From Psammoneis japonica (lineage: Eukaryota), in NCBI GenBank assembly GCA_008632985.1, contig QPGO01000097.1, positions 62,001 through 126,000 on the forward strand: DNA of 64,000 nucleotides, written 5' to 3'. The notes under the pieces were generated by a model. It saw only the letters and a list, made by a program, of their open reading frames with translations. It made no database searches and was not told where the DNA came from. The position numbers were made by a program, and so were the translations under genes. Shown here one piece after another: positions 7,958-48,601 of the stretch (position 1 is its first letter; each line of letters starts with the position of its first letter).

Positions 7958-10900
7958 TGCAAGCTCAAGCTGAGGTTGATGTCAAAACAAGGAAGTGAGT
8001 CACTCTCCATCGTGAGTCTATGCGTCGACCGTTCTTCGCGCGCGCTCGCACGCACCCGAAGGTCTCCTCATAGACTCTCGCGGAAGTAAGACGGACGATG
8101 TACCAGGGTCGTATGTAGGCCGTTTGTTACGGTGCCGTTTTTCCGTCGCACCGACCGGCGGGACATGCCGCAAGCATCATCGTTTCATTGCTGTTATCGG
8201 CATGAACGACTCCCAACTCCCAAGGCTGTCTAGCACTGTAGAATGAATCTTTTAGGATTTCGAGCATGACATGACAAAACCCCACAGTCACATGACCACC
8301 ACATGGCTGGCTCCTCGTTCCATCTTTCACAGTCGGACGTGTTGACAATTTTCTCTCGGCTCGATCGCGCTGGCCACACATGGAATGCCAGCTCTCCTCG
8401 TTCGTTTCTATGGTCAGGGTGACACACCCAACATTTGTTCCACAGTTCATCAATCACCAAGAACTGCCATGCTGGCAGGTGATCGTAAGCCAGTTGCTGT
8501 GGGAGCCGAAAAGAGACGGGAGGACACAAGCAGTGAGAACATCTAAGACACAGATTTCAAGATGAGTCAACAATTGTGAGCAAAATCACAACACCAACTT
8601 GCCAATTGACCTTTGTGCACATTCTTTCGTGTCTCCTGTGTGCATGTGCTTGTCGCTGCAACCCTGTTTGTCTCACGCCATTGCCAGAGGCATTCACACT
8701 GTCGCGAACTGATGAAATGCTGCGCGAAGTGCAAGCCCAATTGAGTGAGTTTGAATGCCAACAATTAACGACATTGTCACATGATCTTACCTCCTTGACT
8801 CAGCGTCATTAAATGAATGCACCCAATGCACTCAAATCTACCCAAGCGGCAAGAAATCGACACAACCGTCCAAAAATCTCCAAAAATGTCACAAAACAGC
8901 GACGCCCAACCGACAATGAGACCCCAGACTGTCTTTGCCTCGAATCTCAGAGCTGTGGTCAAACCACGCCTCACACAGACACCAACAAACAACACCAATG
9001 TGTTGCATGGACTGAGAACCTGCGTGATGACGAGGAAGAGCCCAATCCGTGAGTGAGCACATTTCTGGCAAAAAACACAAAGCCATTTGTTACGAACGAC
9101 AGAAACAATGGTTGTGCCACAAGAAAGACAATGCCATTGCAAGGCAACAATGAAAATGCGCACAAGTTTCCATGTCATAACTTGCAGGGCGCAACGGAGC
9201 GGAACATGCGACGACAATCGACGACACATGTCAGCACCTGCCGAAAAAGTGACGATTTTGCACTTGGTCAGTCTCAGGGATAAATCAATCAAACATTTGC
9301 CAATTTTCTCCATTCCAACACCATGGCACGCTTCAACAGCGAGTGTCCGAATGACCACTGAACGGTGTGAGGCACAGTGGTCGATGCGCCGATGAAGTTT
9401 TATTTTCAACTCTCACCAGCTCAACAAGACAAGAGACAGGATCAATGCAGGTCAATGCCCGAAACTCAATCTCTCCATCCGGCACTTTGATTTTCCACGG
9501 GCCAATGAGTTCAACTGCCACTTCCGACCAGGGAGTTAATGTGGCTTCTCGCTTGGGCAACTCTCCACAGCCAGGACCCAATGTTTTGTTGCGTTGACAA
9601 TCAGCACAAGAGCACTCATCACACATGCGACGCAACCCAGGATGATGACAATGAGCCTGGATCGTCTCACACATGCGCTGGCTTCTGGCATGGCCAAGGA
9701 CGAGATGACACCACCGCAAGATGTCGGGCATGAGCGCAGTCAGCAAACAGATTTTCCACTGTCCTGGAGGATCATTCGGTCACGTGCAACAACATGCAAG
9801 CGGTCGATTGTTCACATGTTCCATAGGAAACAATCAGGGCAAGCAACGCGCATCTGGCTCAACTGTTGGTCCTCGAACTGATGCTCCTGAGTGTGTTGTA
9901 ACGTCATTGGATTCTGCATCTCCTGCATGGTGGGGCAATTCAAGAAGGAATCGAACAGCTCTGGCTCATCCACAAAGAAAGAGAAGAAGTGTGAGTGGCC
10001 TTCATTTTCAATGTTGCGACAACACTTGAATCGGCGTGCGCCAAGCTCCAAGTCCTCATCGCGGAAATCCTCAACTTCGGATGGTTCCTCACTCGGCACC
10101 AACTTCGAATTGAGCGGAGCAAAATCGACAACAGTTCCTTTGCCTGGGGCCAAGCTCTTCCCTTCAGAGGGAGGATCCATGCAAGGCAAACAAGAAAAAC
10201 AATCAGCCAAGACATTCAATCGGCCTTCAATGTGATGAAATTGAGGGGCAAAGTCTTCCAGAAAGAGTCGCCAACGAAGTGCACGCTGTGAATTCAAGGT
10301 GTGAAAGGCAAGGTTCTTGTGGTCAGTGAATGCATGCAAGTCGCCGCCAAGGAGCATTGTTCGGCATTCTCGGAAGCACATGACAATGGCTGGCAGTTCT
10401 TTTTGGATCGTCGAACAGTTTTGTTGCACCGCATTGAGCTTTCGAGACCAGTGTGCAATGGGCTTTCCATCCTGTGCAATCACTGCGCCCATCTGGCAAT
10501 CACTTGCATCGGTGTAGATGTGGAAGGGTTTGTTGTGATTCGGACATGCCATTGGTGTTTTGGCCGCTGGGACTGCTTTCATCTCATCGAACGCCGCCTG
10601 ACATTCCGCTGTCCATGTCCATGAGCCTTCACCTGTAAGATCTGTCAAGGGTTTCAACAGGTGAGAACGCTGAGGCCACACATTGTGACAACACGTTGCA
10701 GTGCCAAGGAACGAACGAAGCTGCTTGATGTTTTCCGGAGGTTGCATCCGCAGGATGGCCTCCACCTTTTTCTTCCACGGACGAATTCCAGTCGGAGTCA
10801 GCCAATTCCCAAGGAAATCCATTTCCTGCACACACCATTCGCATTTCAAGGGATTTACTTTGAATCCAGCTTCCTCCAGGCGTTGCAAAAGTTTGTCAAG

Positions 10901-11263
10901 ACGGTCAAGGTGAGTGTCAAAGTCGTCATCAAATTGAGCGAGATCATCAACATGCGCATCAACATCCAAGTCGTGCACAGTTTTCTCAACCAAACATTGC
11001 ACAACATCTGGAGCCAGCTTCAGACCCATTGCCAAACGGCAGTGTCGGCACTTTCCAAAGGGTGTCACGATTGTCGTCAAGTCCTTGGAATCGTCATCCA
11101 ACTCGAGTGCATGGTGCATCATTGAGAGGTCCAATTTAGTCAAAAACTTGCACCCGGCTCTCTTCTGCAGCACATCTTGAATGATTGGCAAAGGGCAAAC
11201 CTTGCGCTTGAGGGCTTTGTTGAGTTCCCGAAAATCGCTGAGTTGCTGCACTCGACCATCCTT

Positions 11264-11712
11264 TGCAGTGTGCGTGCAGACAAAAGGTTGTTTTTGTCAC
11301 GCCCATTGTGACATTTAAAGGCTGCAACACGTCGCCGTGATGCATCAACTCTTGTTGGCAGCTGTGTGTTGCACTCCTCCCCATGCATCACGCGTCCGTG
11401 CGGCTCTTTACCAACGTGCACTGACACTGCACGGTTTTGGCGGAACAGTGTGGGTGCGTGCGAAGGAACACACAGAACTGCACAGAGTTTTACGCGTTCG
11501 ACAGTGATCAACGTTGCTGCAGACAACTCCCACTCAGGGTTTCGAACCCCTGGCCTCCTGCCTGATGGTTGCGCATTGAACCACTCCGCCACGAATTCAC
11601 AACGCAGTGTGCATGCAGACAAAAGGTTGTTTGTGTCACGCCCATTGTGACATTCAAAGGCTGCAACACGTTGCCGTGATACATTGACTCTTGTTGGCAG
11701 CTGTGTGTTGCA
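11264..11712 (-). mobile_element. 449-bp TRIM (miniature non-autonomous LTR element) inserted in the Gypsy-1 RT
   Basis: 110-bp direct repeats at 11264-11373 and 11603-11712, 4-bp TSD CCTT (11260-11263, 11713-11716), minus-strand polypurine tract GGGGAGGAG next to the 3' repeat. Removing it restores IWPKKDGRV in RT. Confidence 0.93.
11524..11600 (-). ncRNA. tRNA-derived sequence with Pol III A and B boxes inside the TRIM; not a functional tRNA
   Basis: Minus strand reads GTGGCGGAGTGGTTCAATGCGC...CAGGGGTTCGAAACCCTG: A box with D-arm-like pairing and B box within a T-arm. Anticodon and acceptor stems are degenerate. Confidence 0.75.
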
Positions 11713-14282
11713 CCTTCTTTGGCCAAATAAAAGCACCAGCAGCCCACTCCGTTGTTCCGGCCTCTTCAAGAACGCCAAGAGTCGCCAAATGATCCAGCTC
11801 TCATTTGAAAGTCTTGAGATCATTGTGCGGCACTGCGTGCGCTCGAGAATGGTGAGGAACAGCGTCAGGATCAATGTCAAGGTGAACTTTTTGCCAGCAC
11901 ACTGGCCAAGAGTGCCATCAAAAAGAGCAGCATGTTTTTCCAACACAAGGCGTAATTTTTCTTGTTGTTCAGTGGTGAGGTGCTTCTGAGCCGACGCTGC
12001 TTCAGAAGGGGACTTTTCCTCATGCTTTGCATCGAGGATGTGGCTGTCCCATGCATCATCATCATCAGCCAGCTCATCAGTCAAGTCGTCAAGCCACTGC
12101 TGGATGCTGATCTGATGGTTTCTTGGTTTCATTGCAATGCTTGAATCAAGCCACTTGATGATCCCGTGTTCGAAATCTAACGTGATGCCTGCTCTCGCCA
12201 AGAAGTCCTGTCCAAGGATCACATCGTGCTGGCAAGGTGAGTCAAACACACATGCATGCATGCCATCAATGCGTTTTGTCTTGTCAAATTCAGGGAGCAC
12301 CATGTCCCGCAGTCGAACGCAACAAGCAGATTTGAATTCTCCCGCCAACATCCGAAACTTCGCAACAATTGGCCCTGTTTCCTCCAATGCTGGCACCGCT
12401 CCAATTGGCAACACCCACGCATGAATCATTGAACGGGTTCCACCGGAGTCAAGCAACACCCGCATCACGCGCTTGCTTTCCTCATCTTGCACAAATTGTG
12501 CCGTGAATGAGGTTGCAGGGACCACGTTCAAAGGTTTGGTTGGTTTTGTTTTTGGGGTTGGTGCAGCGCACTCAAGTCCCACATCGTCTTTGTCATTCAC
12601 AGTGTGATTTTCGAAATCGTCATCATCAAACAAATCAGCAGCACACACATGACAATCATCAGCACAATCAGTGCAATCATCAAACATGTGGGAATCATGA
12701 GCGACACACTCGGACGACAGCTCTTCAAGCTCATTGGGTCAGTGTCGACCGCGTCCTGAGAAGCGACCACCAGGTCGAAAACTTCCCGCTCCACCTTGAC
12801 ACTCACAAGGCCCTCCCATTGAATCAAGATGATGGCTTTCAGCAGACCAATCATTGGGAGGAGCCATTCTGGCTGGATTGCCGCAACCGCCGCCATCTGC
12901 ACTGGTTCGGGTGTCGTTTTGATGTTGCATGTGGGAGCCACCATCTTCATGATGCTCGCCGCTGTTGCCGCCAGAGTTGCAGTTTCCTCAACCGCCACAA
13001 TTTCCTTGGCCACTGCCACGACCTTGACAGCCACGGCCTTGCCAACCACGACCTTGATTTCCACCACAACCTCGACCTCCACCGCGACCGCCACCTCGAC
13101 CACCACGGCCACCATGCCCGCGACCGCCACGATCAGTTCTTGGACAGCAGTTGTTGGAGTCGGGATTCATGATGCAATCTTTCCACTTGTGATTGTGAGT
13201 GTGCAATGGACGCTGGGTTTCTGGGTCAACGCGATTGCCTTTCTTCTCATTGGAGCCACCTTTGGACTGTCCATCTTTGCGCTTTTTCAACGTCTTCTTG
13301 TTCCCATCCGCAAACGATTTCTCCGTGCTCACATGCGTGACAATCTCCGCCAGTGCATCATTTCCAATCGTGCGTCCTGCTCTTGTGTGCATCTCGCGCC
13401 ACGACAGAGGGAAGCTGTCAAAAATCATCTTCTTCTTCTGGTTCTGAGCAACAACTGGATTGTTTCCCTGCAACTTGTTTGTGCATTGCACCAAAGTTTC
13501 CATTCGATCTGCGTGTGCCTGCACTTCAATGTCATGGAAAAAAAAAATATGTCAAGCTAGAAACAAAAAAAAAACTTCAAAAATGGCCTCCCGGAATTGC
13601 CATGGTGAGATTGGACCATTCATCTTCGGCTGCATCCACCAACACTTCTTCAAAGTTGTCAAACAATTCTTCTCCTGCAGTGAATTCAAGTTTTGCAGCC
13701 AGTTTACAAAAACGGTCTTCCACAGACAACAACGCTTCAACCCCATTGCTTCCATCAAAACAAGGGCACTTTTTCGTACGCGTGCTACCATCATCACACG
13801 ATTGGGTCAGTTTTGCAAGTTCCAAATCGAATGGGCAAATTTCGCAGCATGCAAGATGCGCGGTTCCTCAAGGCTCTCACGATTGCTCATCAGGCCAAGT
13901 TGGTCCACCAAGGAACTGTTTCAAGCACTCTACCTTTGACTCGAGTTGTGCCACTCGAATCGCCAAATTCTGTTCGCGTTGTTTCCGTGTCTCCTTTTCT
14001 CGTTTTTGTTCCAAAGCCCAGTTCGCTGCCTTTGCTCTCAAAGTTCTCTTCTCTTGTTTTGCAAGCCTGTCAGTTGCATCGTTGTTTCTCATTCAGCTCT
14101 TTACAATCGACTGCAGTTGCAGCGCAAGCTCAAGCTGAGGTTGACGTCAAAACAAGGAAGTGAGCAGACCGAAGAGAGGGAGAGCCCAAGCGTCAGCGAG
14201 CGCTGGCGAGCCCTCTCAAACGGCCACGTTAATCCAATGTCCAAAATCAGTGCTGTGCGTCAGAAGCGTGCGAGTGAGTCAC

Positions 14283-14513
14283 TGCAAAAATGTCAAAGTC
14301 ATTCTGTCAACGTCATTTCGGACATTTCCACATGTCGCTCACGTCATCAAGATTCAAATCTCTTCTCTTCTCACAAATTCGGTCGTTGAGACCTCTCGTC
14401 AGTTTGCAATCATAATTTCTCCACAGAGAACTTTGACAACGACTTCTGCTGCTCTGTTGCAACCTTGAGCTCTTGCTCTTTCTAACACAAGCTACTTTGT
14501 CGCATCTTTAGTG
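14283..14513 (+). repeat. Copia 5' LTR
   Basis: Aligns end to end with 21720-21949; followed by GTTGCGAGTCCC, a putative primer-binding site. Confidence 0.93.
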
Positions 14514-15076
14514 GTTGCGAGTCCCAATTTCGCATGGCGTTCGTTCCGCCGCCGGGAAAGCGCTGTCGATTGGGTCACCGAAGCTTCCATCCGCCACCAA
14601 CGTCGATTCGTTCGTTTCCGCCAAAACGGTCGCGTTGTTTGACGTCTGAACGACACCTCCAGTCAACATCAGACACTCCCTACGTTGCCACCAGCCGCCG
14701 TTGTTCGATTGACAAGCTGGCAGCCCATTTTGCTTCGCGGAATCGACCCACGATCTCCAACGAGTTCCGAATTTGAAACCCCAACGTCCGTGTGTTTCAA
14801 ACCAAACCCGGATCGAGTTCCTGCGACTCTCCGGTCCTTTGTCAATCAAGAACAGCTCCTCAAGTCACGCCACGGGTTGCTCATGTCGTGCTGTTGATTG
14901 TTGCAATCGTTTGGCGCCATTCTACAAGCTCTGCAACTCGAAGTTCGTTCTGTTGATCCGTTGTTGAGTTGACTGCGTACATTTGGCACCACAGCTACAC
15001 AAAAGTTGTCTCTGCCATGACGAACAATCCTCCTCCGCCCAAGACTCCCACCAGTCAGCCTCCGCCACCTCCCGCG

Positions 15077-15235
15077 GCACAACAAAACCAGTCGACAGGT
15101 GCTGCTGCACAACAGAGCCAGTCGACCGGTGCTGCCGCTCAACAGAACCAGTCTGCTGGTGCCACCGCTCAACAGAATCAGTCTGCTGGTGCTGCCACTC
15201 AACAGAACCAGTCTGCCGGTGCCGCTGCTCAACAG
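15077..15235 (+). repeat. 30-bp coding tandem repeat (about 5.3 copies, AQQNQSxGAA) at the Copia gag N-terminus
   Basis: GCTCAACAGAACCAGTCTGCTGGTGCYRCY-type units with period 30. Confidence 0.9.
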
Positions 15236-18200
15236 TCGTCACGCTCCAACCAACAGTCGTCGCGTTCTGACGTTCAGCACCCTCGTCCACCTCCAATCCG
15301 TGGCGGAATCCATCCGGAATGTGGTCGCCACATGGGTGGATCACCGCTGAATGATGAGCACCATCTCAAGCTCAAGCGTGCCTGTCGCTCCACCAACCAG
15401 TCTCGGGACAAGAAGATTCTTCCTCATGTAGAGCGCAATCTCCGAGATGCCTGAGATGGAACCGACGTTGTCAAGTTTGACGGGAACCTGGAGATTCCCA
15501 ATGGCAAGACGAATGAGCTTGACAAGGAACACTTCGTTCAAGCAGTCCGCACATTGGTGAATGAGCATGGATTGGAAATTTTTTTCATGAAGTTGGACAA
15601 GAAGGTCGTTGACCTCTTCACTCACCTCCACAGCTTCGCCGTCGACGAGGTCATTGCGGAGTGTGACGAACGCGCCAACAAGGCGACAGACGATTCGGCA
15701 CGCGACGAATGTGAGCATGACGACATCAATCTTTCACGTCTTGTTGTCGAGTCTCGCATCACTCACCAATTCCGCGAGAAGATTGAAACTCAATTTGGTC
15801 ATCGCGACCTCTTCCGATGCTGCCCTGGGCAAATCATTTTCACGATGGCACTTGAGACTTGCAATGCCTCCACCATGCATGATGTTGCTCAAGCCGCTGG
15901 AGACTTCAAGGCTTTGACGCTTGACTCCTGTGCTGGCGAGGATGTCACCAAGTTTGCTGCCGAAGCTCTCGTCTCACCAAGATCCTGCAAACAGGATGCG
16001 CGCTCCCCGTCTCTCTTGGGTCCAATCTCCTTTGGAAGTGCTCCAAGACCTCTGGCGAAGCATTCAATCGAGCAATCTTGCCCAGTTGGACAAGGTGACG
16101 GCCATGGAACGCAAGCATTGTTTGACGGACCCAGCGCCACTTGCCAAGGACAAGGACTGCGAAACTCTTGGTCCGACCGCGTGCATCACCTTCCTTCAGA
16201 CGAGGCATTGCAGCTTCGTCACCGACAAGGACTGGCCCAGTCTCTCTGCCAAACTCCCTCAGGGTGGCCACACCAAGCGCAAGGGAGCTTGCAATGCTTG
16301 TGGTGCTCCAGACCACTGGGCTGACGACAAAAAGTGTCCCAAGCATGCGGAGCATCAGCGCCTGAAGAAGCTTGCCCGCCAACAACAAAAGGGCCAACTG
16401 CCAGCAGGTGCTCCACCCCCTCCTTCCACGTCTCCTCCCGGTGCTGTTGCTCCAGCAAATGCACCTGCGGACAAACAAGCGAAGTTCAAGGAGCTGTTGG
16501 CGAACGAGCCCCATCGCTGCACTTGTCCGGCTGATCTCAACCAGCCAGTTGTGAACAAGTGTGGTTCGACTGCTTGCTTTTGTGCCAAGTGCACGTGCCG
16601 CCACACTGGTGTCAAGGGCCTCTGTGCTGGTCACAAGGATGCCGCCCATGCCAACAAGCCACCCAAGAAGAAACAGCCAGATGCCAACCTTGCTGCCGTG
16701 GCCGATCCCAATTCTGGCGTGCCTGCTGGGCCACCCGCTCAGACCACCGCCGATCCTGCGTCTTCCAAGCCCGATCCGTCGTCCGACGATGATGCTCCCC
16801 CCGTTTCGGAGGAGGAACCAGTCTGGACCGGGTTCCATTGCTGTCCTGTCGAGGACGCATCCGGCAACACTGCTCCCGTTGCGCAAGTCTCCGTCCTTTC
16901 TGGTCCCACCGTTGAGAGGGAGCAGCGCACAATTTTGGTTGAGACGGTTGACCCGGAAGACGCTGACGATTTCAGCGATTGCTGCGACACTTGCGACAAT
17001 TTGGGTTGGGATGATTCGGTCATCCTCTTTCCTGCTTCGATGTTCCCACCGGAGCCTTCTATCTTGGACGATCCGCCGCCTCCTGTTGAGTCTCCTGAAC
17101 TTGACAACGAGTTCTACGATGCGATCTCTGAGCCTGCTCCGAACATCCTTGACGTGGAACCTCAGCCTGCTTCTTGCTGGCTCTGGTCCCTCCTCAAGAT
17201 CCCAGTCTTTTGGTTCTCTGCTCTTCTTTGGGAAGGCATCCTGTGGCTGGCGGGTGCTGGTGGTGATCCGCCGCTGCCCTCGCGTCGCCATCGCCGTCTC
17301 AAGCGCAAGCCTGCTCTTTTCAGTCATCCGTGTCGTTGGGGCGTGATCTCCTGTGCGATTGCGCTTTGGCTCTCCGTCTGTCTCGGACGAGCCCAGCCCC
17401 ATCCTGGTGTTCCTTTGCAGCACCTCTGCTCTCAGACCACGCGGTTGTTCAAGCTTTTGACGAACGTGTCGTCTTGACCCCTGGCACCCTGCTGCAGTGT
17501 CATCATCTGAAGATCAAGCAGTTCCAGCGTGAGGTCTTGGCACCAGAGGGAGCAACGCATGACACGACGACCTCACCTTTCAAGCTTCACGAGTTGATCA
17601 AGGCCTGTGAGCTTGATGACTGCTTTGACACCTGTGAGGACCTGCCTGTCTTTCAAGAGTCCTTCTTTGATGCTGCTGCCTTTTGCGAGTCGGACTTCTC
17701 CAGTCCTGACATCTTTGGGATCTCCGAGTTGTGTTGAGCCCACCATGTGGTCGACTGCACCGAGTTCCAACCTTCTGTCGCGGAGCTGGTTGCTCAAGCT
17801 GCCAGTGCGTCCCCTGCTTCTATTGGACAACCTGCTGCAGCTGCTGTCCAGGCTCTCACAGGAGCCACCCACCTGTCTTGCCTGGCTGGGGACCCCGCCG
17901 TTCTCATGTCCATCAGGCAGTCGTCACTGGAGGTTGTCTTCGACACTGGCGCCTCGCTCGCCATCTCTCCAGATGAGGAAGACTTTGATGGCGAGATTGA
18001 ATTGCCATCTAAGCCTCTCAAGCTTGGCGGGATGGCTGGCGGCCTTCCCGTCAAGGGCGTTGGTGCTGTCTCTTGGTGCTTCCAGGCTGCCGACGGCAGC
18101 GACATCAATGCCCAGACTCGCTGCTGCCATGTCCCTCGTTCCAAGGTGCGCCTCCTGTCCCCTCAACGTCTCTTTCATCCTGCGGGTGTTCAAGGCCATT

Positions 18201-21200
18201 TTTGGGGTGACAGTGAGATCTTCAAGATTTGTTTTTACAGCACACCCGAGATCCAAGTTCCATGCGATGAGCGCTCGAACTTGCCAGTTGGTTGTGCATC
18301 TTGCGGTGCTGTGTTCACTCCTCAGGTCAATTTGAGTGCCATCGCTGACCCTGACAATCTAAATCTGTCCTCTGGGCAGAAGCTGCTCGTGGACACACAT
18401 GCTTGGTTTGGGCATCTCAATTTTCCATGCATCCAAGCTCTTCTCTGCTGGCCTCCTTTCACCGCTCTCAAGTTCGCGTCTGCTTCCAAGTGTGACATCC
18501 CCAAATGCGACACCTGCGAGCATGCCAAGGCTCACCGCCGTCCTGCCAAAGCCCAACAAAAGACTGCTGTCCCTGAGCGTGATGGTGCACTCAAGGCTGG
18601 TCATCTCCATCCAGGTCAGTCTGTGAGCGTTGATCACTTCGAGTCGCGTCTGAAGGGTCTCACCTGCGATTCCTGTGGCAAACCCTCCTCCCAGCAGCAT
18701 GTTGGCGGCTGTGTTTTCGTCGATCATGCCTCTGGGTTCATGCACATTGAGCATCAAGTTGGTTTCTCTGCAGTTGAGACGATGCGGGCAAAACAAGGTC
18801 ATGAGCAGATGGCTCTGGGTCACGGCGTCGTCGCGCAGAGGAGTGCCTCACCGACAATGGTGCTTTCAAGGCCAACAAGTTTGTCACCCACATCTGCGAA
18901 TCTCAGCAGTGCATCCACTGTTGTGGAACAAACGCCCATCACCAGAACGGTGTTGTGGAGCGGTCCATTCGTTCCATGTCCAACATGGCGCGAGCCATGA
19001 TCCTCCACGCGTCCATCCATTGGCGCAGTGGTGTTGACAGCTCCTTGTGGCCTGTGGCAGTCAACTGTGCCACCCACATTTGCAACAACACTCCAGGATC
19101 AAATGGACTTTGTCCTGCCGACATTTTCACCGGATCCACCGTCCCACGCCACCGTTTGCTCGATTTACATGCTTGGGGTTGTCCTGTCTACGTCTTGGAT
19201 CCCAAGTTGCAGCAAGGACAGAAATTGCCGTGTTGGCAACCATGATCACGGCGTGGTGTTTTTCTTGGCCTCAGCTTGGTTCGCGCCAGCGAGGTTCCAC
19301 TGGTCCTGAACTTGAATGCCGGGTCCATTGCTCCTCAGCATCATGTGGCATTCGACGATCTCTTTGCCACGGTTGCATCGATCGAGAGGGAGAGCGAGCC
19401 ACCTGATCACTGGGAAGAGCTCTGTTTGGAGAGTGTCACCCAGATGCCACTGGATTCGAGCAACAAACAATTGTTCCTCCAAGATGATTGGCTTGCTCCC
19501 ACAGAACTCAAGCAGAAACGGCGACATGAAGAACGTGAGCATCTCATCAGGAATGCATGTCAACAACAGCCTGCCACCACAAAGTCTTCAAAGCCTGTCG
19601 CTCCAGTTGTCAAACCGCCGCCATCCACACGTCCCAATGCGTCCATGCCATCCAATGCAGACGACTTGCCATTGGCACCACCCCAGGAACCGCCATTGCA
19701 GCCACCGCAAAACCCCAATCCATCAACGAGCGATTCTGAAGTTGGTCACACACTGCCTCTCATGCATCCGCCACCTCAATCTGGCCCAGAGTCATCGGAC
19801 ATCCCAGTCCCGGCTTCTGATGTTCCAGTCCCATCCACGACTGAGCAGAACGTGCGTCGCTCACAAAGATCAAACAAAGGCAAGCGAGCTACAACTCGTT
19901 TTGCCGACGAAGTCTATTCAGCCTCAGTCGAGCCATTGGATGCTGGAGGACACCATTCCCAGCTCGCCTGTCTCGCTGAGATCCAGACCTGCCATGACAG
20001 TGGACAATTGGACATTCAAGACCCTCGTGTCTACGCTACAAAGGCCAAGAAGAATGACGATGCGCTGAACATGCGAGAAGCTCTCACGGGCGAATTCGCT
20101 GAGCAATGCGTCGAGGCCATGAAGACCAAAGTGATTTGCACTTGTTCATTGTAAAACTTGGAAATTTGTCAAGCGAGATTCATCTGTGAATGCATTGAAA
20201 TCAACATGGGCATTTAAGTTGAAACGCTCACCCGACGGCACTCCGCTGAAACTCAAGGCTCGATTTTGTTGTCGTGGCAATTTGCAGCAAGAGGGAGTCG
20301 ACCACTTCGAGACTTACGCTCCAGTGGTCCAGTGGTCGACTGTTCGTTTGCTGTTGAGTGCTGCATTGCAAGAAGGGTGGACAACTCGTCAAGTTGACTG
20401 CACAAATGCGTTTGCACAAGCTGATGTCGCTGAAGACGTTTGTGTCGAACCTCCCAAGTGCTTTGGTCATCCTTCAGGTACGAACGTGGTTCTCAAGCTG
20501 CTCAAGACGCTCTGTGGGTTGAAACAAGCCCCGAAATGCTTCTGCGAAAAGCTCCGCGAAGGATTGCTTGAACGAGGGTGGATTCAGTCAGCTGTAGATC
20601 CATGTCTGTTCTTCAAGGATGGTGTGATTTGTGTTGCACACGTCGACAACACTGTCCTCGCTGGTGCCAACGGAGACCTTCTGGAATGCGAGATTGCCGC
20701 TCCAGGAATTCAAAAGGAAGAACAACGTCATGTTTTCGAGCTTCGTAACAAAGGAGAAGTTGGCGACTTCCCAGGTGTCAAGATTCGCAAGACCGGACCC
20801 AAGGAGTTCCTGCCAACTCAACCAGGTCTGACCGACAAGGTCCTCAAAGCTGCTGGCATGGAAGATTGTCGTCCTTCTCCCACGCCTTGCACTGCTTCTC
20901 CATGCCATGCTGATTCAGAGGGAGCCGATTTTGCCAAACCATGGGATTGCCGATCTGTTGTCGGGATGCTCATGTGCTTGTCGGCAAACTCCCGTCCCGA
21001 TGTCACGCGCGCTGCTCATCAAGCCGCTCGCTTCTCCTGCGCTCCTGAACACTCTCATGCTGTTGCAGTGAAGCGCATTCTTTGTCATCTTCAAGGTGCC
21101 AAGGATGAGGGCCTCCATCCATGCCCCAGCAACAACAAACGAGTTGATTGTTTCGTGGATGCCGATTTTGCTGGACTCTGCGGTCATGAAAACTCCCAAG

Positions 21201-21719
21201 ACCCCGTGAGTGTCAAGTCTCGTACAGGATGCGTCATTTTGCATTGTGGCTGTCCTGTTCTGTGGGTCTCCGAGCTACAGACGCAGGTTGCCCTCTCTGC
21301 TGTGGAGGCAGAACATCTGGCACTGTCAGCTGGCATGCACGACCTGATTCTGATCCGAGAAATTTTGAAAGAAATTCAGCATCACGCACTCGGGCGCAAG
21401 AATGCTTCTGCTCCCACTGCTGCCAAATCCAAAGCCTTTTCTGATGTGAAAGACGGTGCGATTCCCTCCTCCATTGTCTGCGAGGACAATCAAGCGTGTC
21501 TCAAGTTTGCGAAAATGGCGAAGATGTCTCCTCGCACCAAACACATTGGTGTTCCCTGTCATTGGTTCCGCACTAAAGTTGAAGTGCTCGAGATCGTCAT
21601 TGAGCCTGCAGGAACCGACTCTCAGCTTGCAGATCAGTTCACAAAGGGGTCAGCCCAAGCTCTGTTTGAATCCGGTCGGAAGAGTCTGTCTGGCTGGTGG
21701 CTCTGCGGTTGAGAGGGAG

Positions 21720-21949
21720 AGTCAAAACATCAAAGTCATTCTGTCAACATCATTTGGACATTTCCACATGTCGCTCACGTCATTGAGATTCAAATCTCTT
21801 CTCTTCTCACAAATTTGGTCGTTGAGACCTCTCGTCAGTTTGCAATCATAATTTCTCCATGGAGAACTTTGACAATGACTTCTGCCACTCTGTTGCAACC
21901 TTGAGCTCTTGCTCTTTCTAACACAAGCTGCTTTGTTGCATCTTTAGCA
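21720..21949 (+). repeat. Copia 3' LTR
   Basis: Begins immediately after the PPT and ends TTAGCA. Confidence 0.93.
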
Positions 21950-22259
21950 AGAGTGACGTGCATGACCAAAAGGCAGGTTCGAAAGCACAACCCAACTGCC
22001 GTGCATTCAAAACGGTCTTTATCTTCCACAATGTTGAATTTGTCAGCATGTTGACAGAGGTGGTTTTGAACAGTTAAACTTGTTGATGCAGCAATGAAAC
22101 TGACGTTGCGGTGCAATCTAGAATGATCCGGCAATGCAACAAAATGCCACAAAGCCATGTGCAGATTTGATGTTGCAACCTTGGATGCGCACAACCATTG
22201 ATTCCATCGACGAGGAACAGGTGGACTGGTCCACACCAGAAGCAACTTTCATTGACCAC

Positions 22260-25200
22260 TTTTGTTGTCACAGAGTGATTGGGGAGTGGAAGGGGTGATG
22301 GGTCTGGGGAAAGGTGTGGCGGAAGGGTCGTGTGAAGCGCGCCAGGGCCCTGGGGGATGGAGAGAAAAAGGGTGGGCCAAGAGTGCGGACAGACGGTTGA
22401 GAGGAGGAGTTGGCAATGGCAGGGTGGCGGAGGAGAAGGGCTTGATGCACAGAAAGATGGGTGGAAAGAGCAAAGCCGAAGCCAAGACAGAGGATTTGGG
22501 AGGCCCAAAGCGACGGTGTTGAGGTGTGGTGTGAAGAGCCGAAGCGGTCTTGAGAGAGTTGTTTCCAGGCCACGTTGGAGGTGGCAAGGAGATGGAGGGT
22601 GCGAGGAGTGAGTTGGTGCGGGCGGAAAAGGATGGTTGAGAGTTGGAAAAGGAGGTGGGACTTGTCCAGGGTGGTTTGGGAGGAAGGGGTGGCATGGAGG
22701 AAGAAGTTGTGGTGGAGGTGCCGAAGAAAAAGGTGTGGAAATGGCGACAGGTTCCAGCCCCAGGTGGGACTCCGTGTGTCATTGGGCCCGCAGAATTCTG
22801 CATGCAAGCTCCACAGCAAATTCATTGAGCAATGAAAATGCAAATGATCGCCAACAGAAAAAGAGGCAATTTTACGAACGCATCTCCTCCTTCACACTTG
22901 GAGCACATCATCAATGGTTTGCCCGGGTGTGTTCTGCAGACATTGAAGAACGCACCCAGAGCATTTTCATTCTCACAAATGTTGAAAATAGAAAGCCTTT
23001 GGCTTCGCAAAATGGGGAGCATGAACAATTTTGTAGAACATCACATGCAGAAATCTGCGTGCGCGACATGCGACGCGATCCAAAAAACTCTTGACGTCAC
23101 AGTGCAGCACTGCGAGGTCCCACCTGGAGCTGGAACGCGTCTGGCAGCCGATGCCGCCAAGGTGGTCAAGGATGAAGGGGAGAAGGAAGAGACCGGCTTG
23201 GTTGATGGCGTCAATGATGTTGGATCCGTTGGTGAATGATGCAGAGCAACTGAGGAGCTTGTCCCATGTGCTGCTGAGGTGAGCCTTGTCAAGTGGGTTT
23301 TCAGGGACAGGCAAACCAGGTGCAGGAAGCGGGGTGGCAGGCGGCACAGTGACGTCCATGGCCAAAAATTGGTGGGTGGAAGGGGCGTCAGGTGGTGCAG
23401 AGCCAGGTGTGAGTTGGACGCCTGCGTCGGCGGGGCATTTGAGGGGGTGGTCAGATGGGAGGCCGGCAGGGTCAAGGTGCGCTTGTTGTCGAGAAGAGCA
23501 CAGGCCGGACAAGGGGCCCAAAGTTTCGATTGTGGTGCAGACGGTGTCTCAGATGTGGTTTGAGAGATGGCTTTTGTGCATTTTGGAGCAGGTGAAGGCA
23601 TGGTCTCCGCAAGGGTTGGAGCGAGCATGGCCGCATGGGCAGTCGCGTTGGAGCAGGTTGGAAGATGTTGTGGGAAGGCGGAGTTTGCGCAGGAGAAGGA
23701 GTGTGAAGAGGTTCAAAGGGAACCAGTTCGAGGCTGGGGCATGTGACAGAGAGTGGAGGCAGAGACTTGCAAGTGGAGACAGTGGAGATGGGAGAGCTGG
23801 CTGCATGCAAGGATTGGCGAGGATTTGGGGGAGGGTGTCATGTTTGTGATGGCACACATGGAGTCGCTGTGTGAGACTGCGCAGGGTGTGGTGCTGAACA
23901 GCATGTTTTAAAGAGGTGAAGGTGAGAGAGTCAAGTTGAAGAAGGGTGGGGGCGCAGTGGCGGAACACACGGTGCGTGGGTTGGACCATGAGCCAAGCAC
24001 GGAGGAGCGGCTTGAAGGGAGTCGGAAGATGTCGCCGCCGGTGAGTGGGATGCCGTGTTTTGTGTGTCGAGTGGATCTGATTGGTGAGGTCACGAGGGCT
24101 GGGATGCCAACAGCGGAGATGTCATGGTGACTGACGCCACCTGAAGAGACAGGGAGGGTGGCGATGAGTTTAGCGGAGGCAGGGAAGGGATCTGCATGTT
24201 GGGTGAGGTGGGAAAGGAAACGCGGGGAATGTCCAATGATCTTGTCGGTGAAGGGAGACGCCATTTCGAAAGGGGGTGGGAGGTCATTGGAGTGCGCAAG
24301 GCTGCAATGTGCATCGGTGGAGAGGAGGTGGGTCATGGAAGGGATGGAGCATTTGCAGAACAGGGTGCTTTGTGTTTGTTTGTCAGCGAGGCAGGTGACA
24401 AGGTGCAGAAGGTCTGTGGCGAAGACGGAGGCTTTGTCTTGCAGGAAGCTCATGGCGAAGGCGAAGGAGCCGATGGGTTGTCCAAGGAAGCGGACACCGG
24501 TGGTGATCTTGGGCTCAACATGTGTGTCGTTGTTGGGGTCAAGGAAGGTGAGGGCTTTGGAAAGGGCCGCGGCATCGGCGGGTGAGAGGTGGCTGATGGG
24601 AGAGGTGCCTGTGGTGGATGCAAGGATTTTGGTCTTTGAGGTGTTTGGTTTGATGCCGAATTGGGGACCACAGGCAGAGAGTTTCTTGAGAAACCAAGGG
24701 AGCTGGGAAAAGGGCAGGAACATGTGGGTGTTGTCGATGCATGACGAGGTGGCGGATTTGGAGCTGGGTGGGAGTCGGTGATGCAATTCATCATTGATGG
24801 GGGTGAACACATGGGCTGGGACCAGGCATGAGAAGGTGGGGCTGAGAGGACAGCCTTGGGCGAATCCTTCAGGCTGGGAAAAGGAGGGCCATTGCAGTTG
24901 ATGGTCACGATGCCAACAGGCATTGGGGTCTTGACAGAGCAGGTCAAAGAAGGGCACAATGGCTTTTCACTCATCAGAGGCAGCAAGGGTGTCGCGGCAA
25001 GCGTCGCGAGAGCATTCGTTGAAACAGCTGGAGAGGTCGAGGAGAAGGAGGGCTTTTGCAGGTGCAGAGTCAGGGTCGAAGTGACGTTCGACATTGGCGT
25101 GGGTGGTGTCAACAAGGCAGTTGAGACCGCCTTTGATGCCAGTGCCGAATTGGCCTGAGAGCAGGAGGTTGGCAGCAAAGGTGGCGGCAAGGAGAAACAT

Positions 25201-25350
25201 GACAAGGGTGCAGGTGATGCGTCGTAGGGCGGTGCCGACGCCAATGGGTCGGAGCTTGGAAAGGTTGGATGATTCTTTGTGTGGGGCGAGGAAACAGTTG
25301 GAGGCAAAGGCGGGTTTGAGTGGCTGGTGGTTGGTGATTGCATGCAGACT
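22260..25350 (-). mobile_element. 5'-truncated non-LTR retrotransposon, CRE-like (RT plus zinc knuckle plus restriction-like endonuclease)
   Basis: RT motifs LRPIGVG, LLDLSSCFN, GFAQGCPLSP, SCIDN, FLGQPIG; then CPCG...GDHAFTC, KCPAD, MDVTV and DHLGGIG. 3' end reads TGACAACAAAA, consistent with a mutated (TAA)n tail. Confidence 0.88.
22746..23141. mobile_element. 396-bp MITE with 25-bp imperfect TIRs and a 4-bp TSD, inserted in the LINE
   Basis: GACAGGTTCCAGCCCCAGGTGGGAC ... GTCCCACCTGGAGCTGGAACGCGTC; TGGC at 22742-22745 and 23142-23145. Removal restores GGIGCHFHT in the LINE frame. Confidence 0.88.
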
Positions 25351-25357
25351 TTTTCGT

Positions 25358-25441
25358 GTCAGTCGGTCAGTCGGGCAGTCGGTTGGTCAGTTGGTCAGTT
25401 GGTCAGTCGGTCAGTCAGTCGGTCAGTCGGTCAGTTTGTCA
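25358..25441. repeat. Degenerate tetranucleotide microsatellite, 21 units of GTYR
   Basis: 10 GTCA, 6 GTCG, 3 GTTG, 1 GGCA, 1 GTTT and no GTTA. Confidence 0.92.
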
Positions 25442-25676
25442 CAATTTGAAAGTGTGTCCCTCGGATTTTGGAGCGGCATGGGTTGTTTGGTGCAAATAAA
25501 GAATTGTTCGGACTCTTGGAACGAATGGTCATTGAGGACATTGGAGGTCGTGGGGACATCCTAAAAAAACAACAAATTCCCTACGACGGGTGCGTGGAAC
25601 TGTTTTTTGGGAGAGCTCGAAAGTGCTCTAAAATTGGGATTGCCGGCGTGTCATGTTGACAATTGCACTCAGATTT

Positions 25677-27040
25677 AGGCACGTTCCCACCCTGATAATT
25701 TCGGCCGTAAAATAAATGCAATTTGGCCAAATTTACGCATTTTCGGGCGTCAGGCTGGGAATGAATTCGATCGGTGAAAAAGATCAAAATCTCATGTCGA
25801 GCTCGGTGAGGACGCTGCACGCCACCGGCACAGTGCTGCACCACGCCACAGCACTGTTTGCACTGCTGCTCTCTCTGGCAGCAGAGAGCTCTAGCCAGAG
25901 AGCTGCCAGAGCTGCGTGCTTCAGCAGAGAGACACCACAACATTGTCAGGGACAATCATTGTCCATTTTGCGACTGCTCTGTGGCAACCCAAGACTGACA
26001 TGACACCAGCGAAGGTCAGAAGAAATGCGCCAACATTCAATCCTCTGTTGACAGCAAGAGTTGCAGAGAGAGCAGAAAAAAGTGCAAAACATTGGCGCGC
26101 AGTGAGACTGCAGCGTGCAAAACTGTCAAATGAAATTTCTGTGAGGTGCCGAAAGGCGCTGTTCTCAACTCTTGTGGTTTGCCAATGGCCCAAATCCATT
26201 TCAAAGAGCAAGAGAAGGGCTGCAGACAATGGAGCAAGGCACTGTGAGGCACAATGCCGATGATGATGTGCAAAACATTTGCCCCCGCCAGCGTCATTGT
26301 CCCAGCACGCGACAAGATTGACGAAATGAGTTCACACAGCCTTCTTCACAGTCACGTTCCATCACAGCGGAGCACAAGCCTTGCTGTTGTTGTCGACATG
26401 ACCAAAATCCTTGCATTCTTGACTCTTGACAGTCCATCAAGTGACAACCTTGAGCATGCACCAAAGAACCACCTCAACGCAAAACATCAGATCATGTGTT
26501 GCTGTGAAGATTTGGCCTCAAGTCTGCAGACGTGTGGTTTGTGAAGAATCCCAACACGAAATCTGAACAAAAGAAAAAAGACATCAAAATTGCCATCAGT
26601 TGACATGGCAGTCACAAGCCACAACAACAACAAAAAATCAAAATTCTGACAACTTGATCGCATCAAACGCAGTCTTGTTGACCTGTCTCTGTGTTGTCAC
26701 CTTTGTGGACAGGACGGTCGTTCGTGTGTGAACGGGTCCGTTCATGGCAGCAGCATCATGGTTGTTGTGTGATTGGAGCGGAGAAAGAAAAATGGGAGAG
26801 CTTGTGATGTGGCATGTTCGAGCTCCCAAAACACCAAATTTGCCGTGAAAATTGTGTTTGCAGGAGAGAATTTATGATGACCGGCACCTGTCATTGTAAT
26901 TTGCTGACAATTGCGGCTGTAAATTGAAGGATGGAAAACAGACGTGCAATTTTTCTTGTGTGAGAGTTTCTGCAGGAATTTTGTGTGGAACGAAATTACA
27001 CTTGTTTTGCGGCCAAAATTGTTGGGGTGGGAACGTGCCT
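25677..27040. mobile_element. 1.36-kb non-autonomous TIR element (AGG...CCT ends, possibly Kolobok-like)
   Basis: About 48-bp imperfect inverted repeats at 25677-25724 (AGGCACGTTCCCACCC...) and 26993-27040 (...GGGTGGGAACGTGCCT). TSD not cleanly preserved. Confidence 0.65.
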
Positions 27041-27489
27041 CAAACAAAGACAACATGTCATGAACTGCACACAAAACAGCCACATTGGGTGAAACATGTC
27101 AAACAACAAGTGAGTTTGTGCGATGCGCTGTTGTGGCAATAAATTGGAAAAAAAGAGTGTCCCTGTGCACCTCGCTGCAGCCCCCAAAATGGCGCTAGAC
27201 ATCAAATGACGGTCATCCATGTCACCGGTGCGGTGGCCATGCCGCTCTGCTGCCACAATCTGCCGGCTGCGGTGGCAGGGCCCTGCGCACATGCAGGCAA
27301 TGCAGCATGCAACAATGGCACACACCCACACCCACAAAGAAAGACAAGTGGTCAATGCTCCCCGCAGGCCTGGTTCATCGCCAGAAATTTTTCCACAGTG
27401 GTCATCGAGCAAGAAGTTGCAGAGCCAGCCGGGAAATCCAGAGCAAAAATTTTCAAAACCCCCCCCCCCAAAAAAAAAAACCAACAGCG

Positions 27490-27680
27490 AGGAGTTTGCA
27501 GAGCATCAGGAACCCTCGCGAGAAAGGTTGCATCCCCCAGGAAAGCAAGCGCGAGAAGTTTGCACAGCGTCAGGAACCCCACAACAAAGGTTGCAGCCCC
27601 CAGGAACACAAGGGTGAGAAACAGAACGTCAGGAACCCCCATGAGAAAGTTTGCAGCCCCCAGGAACCCCGCAAGAAAGT
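27490..27680. repeat. Imperfect tandem repeat of about 31 bp (6 units), probably subterminal repeats of a DNA transposon
   Basis: CAGGAA core at about 27507, 27538, 27571, 27601, 27630 and 27661, mostly preceded by TTGCA. Confidence 0.8.
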
Positions 27681-30600: not shown

Positions 30601-30989
30601 TTGATGGATGCAATCATTTGCGCGCAAATCGCCACAGCAAAGTTTGCCATCGAGTTCCAGATGAGAGAAAAATCTTTCCCTCCAGTCTCATCTCTCATCT
30701 CTCCTCCACTCAACTTCTTGCCGAGAAAAAAAAAAAACGCAAAAACTGTCATCCCGACTTGACCATGGCGCTCTAGTTCCGAACCTGTTGTCCACACTGT
30801 TGAGCTGTTGATGCACCATTTGATTTGCAAGAGTCGACATGACAAGAGACCATGCGCAGCATGTGTGCAATGCATTGTTGCACCATTTTTTTCTGTCATT
30901 GTTGATGTACATCCTGGCAGTGATTTTGCATGAGGTTTGAATTTTACAATGATTGGTGTGCAACAATCAGCTCGACGTGAATTTCAAAA

Positions 30990-48511: not shown

Positions 48512-48601
48512 TTAAAAGGCAAGTAAATTGAAAATCAAAAAGGTGTCATCAATGTGACCAAGGCTTGCCAGTTGTTGTCTCACTCAACTTTCTTGCCACC
48601 G

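What the first reader, a model, noticed from the sequence alone, without database searches (positions are those of the whole stretch)
14283..21949. LTR pairs show the mutations arose in place after insertion
Known: two LTRs are identical at integration. Seen: apart from the first few bases and one 1-nt indel, the Copia LTR differences are five reciprocal TG/CA swaps, one TA/TG and four CG versus TG/CA. The TRIM LTRs show TA/CA (TTTAAA vs TTCAAA), TA/TG (GATAC vs GATGC) and a CA/TG swap. Inference: independent chromosomal hits on either strand, at a rate far above other substitutions, so LTR-divergence dating would overestimate age.
Basis: partly seen in the sequence, partly recalled or inferred. 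Interest (0 to 1): 0.8.

Follow-up and report, generated by a model that had tools for sequence, protein, structure and literature searches.

The report
In-place TpA hypermutation of diatom retrotransposons
The two ends of a dead diatom retrotransposon differ only by a peculiar kind of point change that destroys TA dinucleotides, which shows that an apparently undescribed, transposon-directed mutation process acted on the element after it had landed in the chromosome.

Summary
The Copia LTRs (14287-14511 / 21724-21947) differ at 13 bases and one indel. All 13 are transitions inside YpR dinucleotides: 4 TG/CA swaps, 4 CG vs TG/CA, 1 TA/TG. None of the 127 other positions differs.

The background signal is large. 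The window is from a diatom. A 44-kb transposon island (about 8.3-52.0 kb) has TpA at 0.05-0.14 of expectation, against 0.57 in flanking genes, with a sharp edge.

Protein homologues give the direction. 20 of 25 conserved Tyr codons in this Copia are now TGY or CAY. Only 9 of 46 Arg CGN codons decayed, and 1 of 101 TG/CA codons swapped.

TA survival fits independent per-strand hits in 5'-TAY-3'. That model predicts 2.7-3.8 swaps for a naive 225-nt LTR; CpG decay predicts 0.2-0.7; 4 are seen.

Short-read-like contigs of a public run reproduce the assembly. Direct polarisation at the LTR sites was not obtained.

The process resembles fungal RIP but with the opposite direction of change. Ten literature searches found no description of it.

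The parts
14287..14511 (+). 5' LTR of a degenerate Ty1/copia element. The start is uncertain within 14275-14291.
   Evidence: Direct repeat with 21724-21947, 93.8%.
14512..14527 (+). Putative primer-binding site, beginning TGG.
   Evidence: Read from the sequence. Its position directly after the LTR is what suggests it; this is an inference, and it was not matched to a tRNA.
15281..21712 (+). Broken gag-protease-integrase-RT-RNase H coding region.
   Evidence: Five tblastn segments in three frames are colinear with residues 16-2219 of a 2219-aa homologue, so there are at least three frame changes. Three in-frame stops lie within the segments. RVT_2 E = 8e-33.
21711..21721 (+). Polypurine tract GAGAGGGAGAG upstream of the 3' LTR.
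   Evidence: Read from the sequence.
21724..21947 (+). 3' LTR. It carries all four single CpG losses and the 1-nt deletion.
   Evidence: A single-copy-depth contig of run X1 reproduces its first bases, including the CA at 21727-8 (table 5c).
11265..11374 (+). First 110-nt direct repeat of the TRIM-like element, nested in a Gypsy element.
11604..11713 (+). Second 110-nt direct repeat of the TRIM-like element.
9812..12738 (-). Gypsy protease / RT / RNase H reading frames, interrupted by the TRIM-like element.
   Evidence: RVT_1, RT_RNaseH and Asp_protease_2 hits. All 7 conserved Tyr codons are now TGY or CAY.
8260..52000 (.). Transposon island with near-total loss of TpA and partial loss of CpG. 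The right edge is sharp near 52.0 kb. A further depleted patch lies at 7815-8018.
   Evidence: TA counts per kb are 0-12 inside and 35-55 outside.
48599..51775 (+). Two- and three-copy tandem repeat, 92-95% identity, showing the same difference spectrum.

Best explanation
The region is a full-length but dead Ty1/copia retrotransposon in a diatom transposon island. It arrived with ordinary dinucleotide content. Afterwards every part of it, including each LTR separately, was hit in the chromosome by two context-specific transition processes.

The dominant process turns TpA into TpG or CpA. This is an A-to-G change on one strand or the other, preferring 5'-TAY-3' (equivalently T-to-C in 5'-RTA-3'). 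It runs almost to completion before any ordinary substitution accumulates.

The second process is the usual methyl-CpG type decay, CpG to TpG or CpA.

A TG/CA 'swap' between LTRs is mostly an ancestral TA that was hit on opposite strands in the two copies. A minority are ancestral CG sites hit on opposite strands.

Shown here: the spectrum, the direction (from Tyr codons), the per-strand independence, the restriction to transposons with sharp edges, and the speed relative to background.

Inferred: that the process acts on DNA, is enzyme-driven and is targeted to repeats or silent chromatin, as fungal RIP is. The chemistry is not shown. My leading guess is adenine deamination on exposed single strands. 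A mutagenic thymine modification at TpA is the main alternative.
For: LTR spectrum:
- 13 of 13 mismatches are transitions in YpR dinucleotides.
- 0 of 127 non-YpR positions differ.

Island-wide TpA loss:
- TpA O/E is 0.05-0.14 inside against 0.57 in flanking genes, with sharp edges.

Direction, from 753 conserved codons of this Copia:
- Tyr, 25 codons: TGY 16, CAY 4, TAC 3, TTC 2.
- Cys 19 of 19, Trp 16 of 18, Gln 23 of 25 and His 24 of 27 are kept.
- Arg: CGN kept 37, decayed 9.

The Gypsy shows the same: Tyr 7 of 7 are now TGY or CAY.

Intact relatives have normal TA:
- 77 of 79 metagenomic loci have TA O/E of 0.34 or more.
- None of 240 listed homologues has Tyr below 1.99%.

The per-strand multiplicative model fits. 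Survival is TAT 0.11, TAC 0.24, TAG 0.45, TAA 0.82 (chi2 4.4, df 6, p 0.63).

Swap counts:
- Predicted for a naive 225-nt LTR: 2.7-3.8 from TA plus 0.2-0.7 from CG. Observed: 4.
- Posterior P(TA) is 0.75-0.98 for the swaps at 14291, 14424 and 14450.

Other support:
- A CG-only model fits poorly (G 6.3, p 0.012). It needs losses of 0.44 and 0.72 in the two LTRs, against 0.20 measured in the coding region.
- One window-versus-family swap is polarised to TA. Codon 21119 is CCA here and CTG in the other copies; the homologues have Leu 9, Met 6, Phe 1.
- TA loss is equally deep in segments whose CpG O/E ranges from 0.78 to 0.28. It therefore saturates quickly.
Against: - No outgroup copy was obtained for the LTR sites themselves, so their ancestral states are inferred rather than read.
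- In the three-copy tandem repeat, two sites show CA/CG/TG and one shows CA/TA/TG. CpG-derived swaps therefore do occur.
- Across all repeat pairs, swaps are rare in the most sensitive R..Y flank class (1 of 25). This fits only if those sites were already converted before the tandem duplications.
- Three TA/TA sites survive in the LTR, where the model predicts 0.2-0.3.
- The second window-versus-family swap (19500-1) is not resolved and leans towards CG: homologues have Ala 6, Glu 5, Thr 1.
- No target-site duplication was found, so the pair may not come from a single insertion.
- The 240 Tyr-normal homologues and the 77 of 79 TA-normal loci also mean that the process is not seen in relatives elsewhere. 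It rests on one genome.
Confidence: 0.7

Rival explanations
1. CpG decay only. Every swap is an ancestral methylated CG that deaminated on opposite strands in the two LTRs. The TpA poverty of the element was inherited from its source copy or has another cause.
For: - CpG loss is real here: CpG O/E is 0.26-0.9 in the island.
- Where one search lists every other family copy as differing, the window has TG or CA against CG in 11 of 36 listed places.
- Two of three informative three-copy sites have CG as the third state.
- The two T..A-flanked swaps would be TCGA, one of the more depleted CpG contexts.
Against: - Measured CpG loss in this element is 9 of 46. That predicts 0.2-0.7 swaps, not 4.
- The best-fitting CG-only model is rejected at p about 0.01-0.02 and needs losses of 0.44 and 0.72.
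- All four single CpG losses are in the 3' LTR and none in the 5' LTR. That is hard to reconcile with four double hits.
- It does not explain Tyr becoming Cys or His, nor the TA/TG difference.
Confidence: 0.12
2. Single-lineage double changes. One LTR keeps the ancestral TG or CA and the other changed twice through a short-lived TA or CG intermediate, as in CA>CG>TG multinucleotide variants known from human data (recalled).
For: - At 19500-1 and 21120-1 all other family contigs share TG where the window has CA.
- If the LTR ends were the canonical TG...CA, the edge swap at 14512-3 would be of this kind.
Against: - Only 1 of 101 conserved Cys, His, Trp, Gln or Met codons shows such a swap over the whole family history.
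- The first step needs an ordinary transition, and the LTRs show none at 127 non-YpR positions.
Confidence: 0.05
3. Assembly artefact. The true sequence has TA carrying a modified base, which long-read base-calling reports as TG or CA at random.
For: - The per-strand, motif-specific pattern is what systematic miscalls at a modified motif would look like.
- Only 62% of the element's sampled 31-mers are in run X1.
- The effect is seen in one genome only.
Against: - Run X1 has single-copy word depth of about 60 and 657,387 contigs of about 214 nt on average, which is typical of accurate short reads (my inference; the library is not on record).
- 410 of 2208 laid contigs are 99% or more alike to the window.
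- One depth-64 contig reproduces the 3' LTR start, including the swapped CA.
- Of 36 listed places where every contig differs from the window, only 1 restores a TA. An artefact would make TA-restoring places dominate.
- Other family copies appear as separate, diverged, single-copy contigs (table 8).
Confidence: 0.05
4. Editing before integration: ADAR-like A-to-I editing of the transcript, or editing of reverse-transcription intermediates.
For: A-to-G with a 5' U/T preference recalls adenosine deaminases (recalled knowledge).
Against: - Both LTRs are copied from the same templates, so pre-integration editing leaves them identical (established retroelement biology).
- Both strands are hit about equally: TG 1.46 and CA 1.40 in the Copia, with a per-strand fit.
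- The 3' neighbour preference T>C>G>A is the reverse of the ADAR preference (recalled).
- Non-coding repeats and nested elements of several families are equally affected.
Confidence: 0.03

Closest known systems
Repeat-induced point mutation (RIP) of ascomycete fungi
   Same: A DNA-level process that acts in place on transposons and repeats. It makes transitions only, in a dinucleotide context, on both strands. It is fast relative to ordinary substitution, has sharp limits at the repeat edge, and inactivates coding capacity.
   Different: RIP changes C to T, mainly at CpA, and so creates TpA and AT-rich DNA (abstracts listed, e.g. PMC7882544). Here TpA is destroyed and A:T becomes G:C. Dependence on duplication, on a sexual phase and on a RID-type enzyme could not be tested. 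Diatoms do have DNMT4 enzymes related to RID, of unknown function (PMC9998398, passages read).
Deamination of 5-methylcytosine at CpG in methylated transposons
   Same: It is present here as the second component: CG vs TG/CA differences in both LTR pairs, and CpG O/E of 0.26-0.9 in the island. Diatom transposons are known to be CpG-methylated (PMC9998398, abstract and passages).
   Different: It cannot remove TpA or turn Tyr codons into Cys or His codons. In this element it is also several-fold less complete (9 of 46 against 20 of 25).
A-to-I hypermutation of retroelements and viruses by ADAR
   Same: It produces A-to-G changes and favours a 5' U (recalled; titles and abstracts only).
   Different: It acts on RNA before integration, on one strand, and leaves the LTRs identical. 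Its 3' neighbour preference differs.
Very-short-patch repair and CTAG scarcity in E. coli (recalled, not searched)
   Same: A TA-containing word is depleted by conversion to CA or TG through biased handling of T:G mismatches next to a methylation system.
   Different: It is bacterial, genome-wide, tied to one pentanucleotide site, and far weaker.
Thymine hypermodification at TpA (5-hydroxymethyluracil of dinoflagellates, base J of kinetoplastids)
   Same: These are lineage-restricted base modifications (named in 10.1101/2024.10.28.620566, passage read). Their TpA preference is recalled. A mutagenic oxidised thymine would give T-to-C at TpA.
   Different: Neither is reported in diatoms: the 12 papers listed of the 15 found concern dinoflagellates or other non-diatom topics, by title and abstract. 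No comparable mutational footprint is known to me.

Membership tests
Ty1/copia LTR retrotransposon | RVT_2-type reverse transcriptase | tested here: met
   PF07727 E = 8e-33 on 20135-21712.
Ty1/copia LTR retrotransposon | Integrase upstream of RT in one polyprotein | tested here: met
   Colinear tblastn match to residues 16-2219 of 2219-aa polyproteins that carry gag_pre-integrase and RVT_2. The window's own PF13976 hit is weak.
Ty1/copia LTR retrotransposon | Flanking long terminal repeats, with a polypurine tract and a TGG primer-binding site inside them | tested here: met
   The purine run 21711-21721 and the TGG at 14512 were read. The PBS was not matched to a tRNA.
Ty1/copia LTR retrotransposon | 5-bp target-site duplication and TG...CA termini | tested here: inconclusive
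   No matching 5-mers at any plausible boundary (my reading). The LTR start is uncertain within 14275-14291.
TRIM (terminal-repeat retrotransposon in miniature) | Short LTRs around a short non-coding core with a PBS and a PPT | tested here: inconclusive
   110-nt repeats around 229 nt. No clear TGG PBS or purine tract is seen. The core looks tRNA-derived by eye, but ARAGORN and Rfam call nothing.
RIP (fungal) | C-to-T at CpA giving TpA excess and CpA/TpG deficit | tested here: not met
   TpA O/E 0.08, CpA 1.60 and TpG 1.62 in the island.
RIP (fungal) | Requires sequence duplication, a premeiotic stage and a RID/Dim-2 type enzyme | not testable with these tools
   No genome is held for this window.
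Methyl-CpG decay | CpG deficit with matching TpG/CpA excess in silent repeats | tested here: met
   CpG O/E is 0.57 in the island and 1.01 in genes. Arg CGN became TGN or CAN in 9 of 46 codons. Methylation itself was not tested.

The most novel reading that the evidence does not exclude
This diatom has a transposon-directed DNA editing defence of the opposite chemistry to RIP. An activity recognises newly integrated or repeated DNA and converts A:T to G:C at TpA on either strand (5'-TAY-3'). Within a time too short for a single ordinary substitution, it erases about 90% of TpA. With the TpA go Tyr codons, the TAA and TAG stop codons and any TATA-like signals. If the activity is enzymatic, it would be a natural DNA adenine deaminase or a mutagenic thymine modifier.
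Probability: 0.45. Interest if true: 0.9.

Novelty: new variant of a known kind. Interest (0 to 1): 0.82.

Why it matters
- **Dating.** LTR-divergence ages in this genome would be inflated. The raw divergence is 5.8%, while the non-YpR positions show none at all (95% upper bound 2.4%).
- **Annotation.** The process removes TAA and TAG, leaving 179 and 108 against 2064 TGA in the island. Dead transposons therefore show long open frames on both strands. Their 'proteins' are Tyr-poor and rich in Cys and His, which can mislead gene callers and homology searches.
- **Biology.** A repeat-directed point-mutation defence is so far described in fungi (the abstracts of PMC7882544 and PMC6963459, listed, call RIP fungus-specific). 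Such a defence outside fungi, with A:T-to-G:C chemistry, would be a new kind of genome defence. It would also point to a possible natural A:T-to-G:C DNA editor.

Tried and rejected
- **Read laying**. It showed a multi-copy family: 2208 contigs laid and 1891 variable places. It printed only 40 of those places, none within 14287-14511, so there is no family consensus at the LTR sites.
It returned 79 related Copia loci, none closer than 76% nucleotide identity. They served as a 'naive' baseline only. The search peptides contained Tyr/Phe, which biases against TA-depleted copies.
- **L067.** This locus (TA O/E 0.12, CG 0.09) looked like a second case. It keeps 12 of 21 conserved Tyr codons overall and has too few informative codons in its depleted half. 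It remains an unverified lead.
- **Earlier findings of this scan**. Nothing relevant was found.
- **Flank class of swaps.** I expected enrichment in the most sensitive R..Y class. It is 1 of 25. This is explained only after the fact, by earlier saturation in the tandem repeats.
- **6mA as the cause.** Rejected. Eukaryotic 6mA is at ApT, linked to transcription start sites, absent from transposons and not visibly mutagenic (10.1101/2024.10.28.620566, passages).
- **GC-biased gene conversion.** Rejected. The AT, AA and TT dinucleotides are unaffected.
- **Literature.** Ten searches found nothing on TpA loss or A:T-to-G:C hypermutation of diatom transposons. One search was badly framed and uninformative. 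Subscription journals and supplements were not searched.
Full report
**The observation.** The window holds a 7.7-kb LTR element whose LTRs are 14287-14511 and 21724-21947 (93.8% over 225 columns). The alignment shows 13 mismatches and one 1-nt indel:
- four adjacent double differences TG/CA (14291-2, 14348-9, 14424-5, 14450-1);
- CG against CA at 14312;
- CG against TG at 14380, 14440 and 14501;
- TA against TG at 14494.

The 5' copy there is the TGG expected to open the primer-binding site, so I treat it as doubtful.

All 13 Copia mismatches are transitions. All fall in the 98 of 225 positions that belong to YpR dinucleotides (P about 1e-5). Four or more adjacent pairs among 13 random hits has P = 0.0025. 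None of the 127 non-YpR positions differs.

**What the element and its host are.**
- A GDP-mannose dehydratase gene at 53395-54441 is 82-89% identical to diatom proteins, so the window is from a diatom. I did not go further than that.
- The element has an RVT_2 reverse transcriptase.
- It is colinear with 2219-aa diatom Copia polyproteins over residues 16-2219. The five matching segments lie in three frames, so there are at least three frame changes, and three in-frame stops lie within them.
- A purine run precedes the 3' LTR, and TGG follows the 5' LTR.
- I found no target-site duplication.
- The TRIM-like element is nested in a Gypsy element on the minus strand.

**The background signal that gives the finding its meaning.** From about 8.3 kb to 52.0 kb the window is a transposon island.

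| Dinucleotide O/E | Island | Flanking genes |
|---|---|---|
| TpA | 0.05-0.14 | 0.57 |
| TpG | 1.62 | 1.14 |
| CpA | 1.60 | 1.13 |
| CpG | 0.57 (range 0.26-0.9 by segment) | 1.01 |

The other twelve dinucleotides are nearly the same in both compartments. TA counts per kb fall from 35-55 to 0-12. The right edge lies within about 50 nt of 52.0 kb. On the left, a TA-normal patch (8019-8253) sits between two depleted segments. In the island TGA is almost the only stop codon left: TAA 179, TAG 108, TGA 2064 on both strands.

**Direction of change.** I aligned the broken Copia frames to 16 intact homologues and kept codons where at least 12 of the 16 agree (753 codons).

| Conserved residue | Codons | State in the window |
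|---|---|---|
| Tyr | 25 | TGY 16, CAY 4, TAC 3, TTC 2 |
| Cys | 19 | 19 kept |
| His | 27 | 24 kept, one TGC |
| Trp | 18 | 16 kept |
| Gln | 25 | 23 kept |
| Arg | 52 | CGN 37, TGN 6, CAN 3 (9 of 46 CpG codons lost) |

- Leu and Val show the matching CTA/TTA/GTA products (CCA 3, TCA 2, GCA 5).
- The RT domain alone gave the same picture against 60 homologues: 14 Tyr columns are now Y 1, C 8, H 3, F 1, T 1.
- In the Gypsy, all 7 conserved Tyr codons are TGY (4) or CAY (3).
- Intact relatives are TA-normal. 77 of 79 metagenomic loci have TA O/E of 0.34 or more. None of the 240 listed homologues has less than 1.99% Tyr, against 0.2% here.

TpA was therefore lost by mutation to TpG and CpA. It was not absent from the start.

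**Context and strand independence.** Survival of TA, relative to gene density, depends strongly on its neighbours:

| Context | Survival |
|---|---|
| ATAT | 0.007 |
| ATAC | 0.008 |
| ATAG | 0.05 |
| GTAC | 0.06 |
| ATAA | 0.11 |
| CTAC | 0.11 |
| CTAG | 0.19 |
| GTAA | 0.19 |
| CTAA | 0.36 |
| TTAA | 0.61 |

A model with four parameters reproduces all ten classes. The parameters are one survival value per strand, set by the base 3' of the A: TAT 0.11, TAC 0.24, TAG 0.45, TAA 0.82. The fit is chi2 4.4, df 6, p 0.63. With the intact Copia loci as the baseline it is chi2 9.2, p 0.16. This is direct support for 'independent hits on either strand'. The sequence alone cannot tell A-to-G in TAY from T-to-C in RTA.

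**Are the LTR swaps TA-derived, and did they arise after insertion?** Both LTRs of a new copy are made from the same templates, so differences between them arose in the chromosome. That is established retroelement biology. The open question is what the swapped sites were.

- *Prediction from the TA model.* Using the per-strand hazards and naive context frequencies, a 225-nt sequence that arrived with normal TA content should show 2.7-3.8 TA-derived swaps, 1.6-1.8 TA/x sites and 0.2-0.3 TA/TA sites. CpG decay at the measured 0.20 (or 0.33 from the LTR itself) adds 0.2-0.7 swaps. Observed: 4 swaps, 1 TA/x and 3 TA/TA.
- *If TA loss had preceded insertion*, only the CpG term remains. P(4 or more | 0.5) is 0.002.
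- *A CG-only model* with separate loss rates for the two LTRs fits poorly (G 6.3, p 0.012; Monte Carlo about 0.02). It needs losses of 0.44 and 0.72. All four single CpG losses lie in the 3' LTR.
- *Site by site.* The swaps at 14291 (A..T), 14424 (A..G) and 14450 (C..C) have P(TA) of 0.75-0.98. The T..A-flanked swaps at 14348 and TRIM 11346 are ambiguous, at 0.2-0.9.
- *Single-lineage double changes* are rare: 1 of 101 conserved TG/CA codons.

**Evidence against my reading.**
- In the three-copy part of the tandem repeat at 48.6-51.5 kb, two sites read CA/CG/TG and one reads CA/TA/TG. CpG-derived swaps are therefore real.
- Over all five repeat pairs there are 29 swaps, 52 CG/x, 16 TA/x, 23 other transitions and 10 transversions.
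- Swaps are rare in the most sensitive R..Y flank class (1 of 25). That makes sense only if those sites were already converted before the tandem duplications.

**Independent data and the artefact question.** One public run (X1) holds 62% of the element's sampled 31-mers. Laid at 80% likeness, 2208 of its contigs match the 10.2-kb stretch, and 410 of them at 99% or more.
- Single-copy pieces have word depth 30-66. The run has 657,387 contigs of about 214 nt on average. I read this as accurate short reads, although the library is not on record.
- A depth-64 contig reproduces the junction into the 3' LTR, including the swapped CA at 21727-8.
- Among the 36 listed places (of 1891) where every contig differs from the window, 11 show CG where the window has TG or CA. 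Only one restores a TA. An artefact at modified TA sites would make TA-restoring places dominate.
- Two listed places are window-versus-family swaps. At codon 21119 the window has CCA and the other copies CTG, while homologues have Leu 9, Met 6, Phe 1. The ancestor was therefore CTA. At 19500-1 the residue is not conserved.
- X1 may be the sample from which the window was assembled. It therefore supports the assembly and not a second individual.

**Timing.** TA survival is the same in island segments whose CpG O/E runs from 0.78 to 0.28. This Copia has reached that plateau with no ordinary substitution in its LTRs. The process is therefore fast and saturating, or at a steady state. Raw LTR divergence (5.8%) would greatly overstate the element's age. 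The non-YpR positions give 0, with an upper bound of 2.4%.

**Comparison with what is known.**
- It works like fungal RIP in that it acts in place, is restricted to repeats, makes only transitions, is set by dinucleotide context, hits both strands and is rapid.
- It fails the defining RIP test, because TpA is destroyed rather than created.
- Methyl-CpG decay is present but secondary.
- ADAR- or APOBEC-type editing before integration cannot make LTRs differ, and it would be strand-specific.
- Eukaryotic 6mA is at ApT, linked to transcription and not visibly mutagenic (10.1101/2024.10.28.620566, passages).
- Diatoms carry DNMT4 enzymes related to the RIP enzyme RID, of unknown function (PMC9998398, passages). 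That is a lead only.
- Ten full-text searches found no description of TpA loss or A:T-to-G:C hypermutation in diatom transposons. One of these was badly framed. Subscription journals were not covered.

**Limits.**
- There is no genome and no outgroup at the LTR sites.
- There is one window of one genome.
- No target-site duplication was found.
- The enzyme and the trigger (duplication, chromatin state, sexual phase) are unknown.
- The one other TA-poor locus found (L067) could not be confirmed as the same process.

Noticed in passing
window 11375-11603 (core of the TRIM-like element) and 11500-11840: The core looks tRNA-derived by eye on the minus strand (a T-arm-like GGTTCGAAACC), but ARAGORN and Rfam call nothing. 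In run X1 this bin has summed word depth of about 49,700, against about 60 for single-copy pieces. The element or its core is therefore extremely abundant.
   Followed up: partly
window 8260-52000, e.g. 15918-17477 (+) and 15945-17513 (-): TAA and TAG have been mutated away (179 and 108 against 2064 TGA). As a result the island is full of long overlapping stop-free frames on both strands that are not genes.
   Followed up: yes
window 14312, 14380, 14440, 14501 vs the 3' LTR: All four single CpG losses, and the 1-nt deletion, are in the 3' LTR and none in the 5' LTR. By chance this is 1 in 8. It could mean that the two LTRs are methylated unequally.
   Followed up: no
window 7815-8253, 7959-7999 and 14124-14164: A 41-nt direct repeat (97.6%, one TG/CG difference) brackets the Gypsy plus TRIM block. 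A TA-normal patch at 8019-8253 lies between two TA-depleted segments, so the depletion follows element borders and not a broad domain.
   Followed up: partly
window 4251-5000, inside ORF 2850-5294: This stretch of an apparent host gene has only 1-2 TA per 250 nt (10-12 expected from base composition) but normal CpG. It overlaps a 72-nt tandem repeat at 4913-5113. It could be codon composition, or a repeat inside a gene being hit by the same process.
   Followed up: no
L067:1-2500: One of the 79 metagenomic Copia relatives has TA O/E 0.12 and CG O/E 0.09, with 0-3 TA per 500 nt in its first half. Tyr-codon polarisation was inconclusive. It is possibly a second organism with the same process.
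   Followed up: partly
window 15080-15235: A 30-nt tandem repeat (5.2 copies, 84% matches) lies in the gag-proximal part of the Copia.
   Followed up: no
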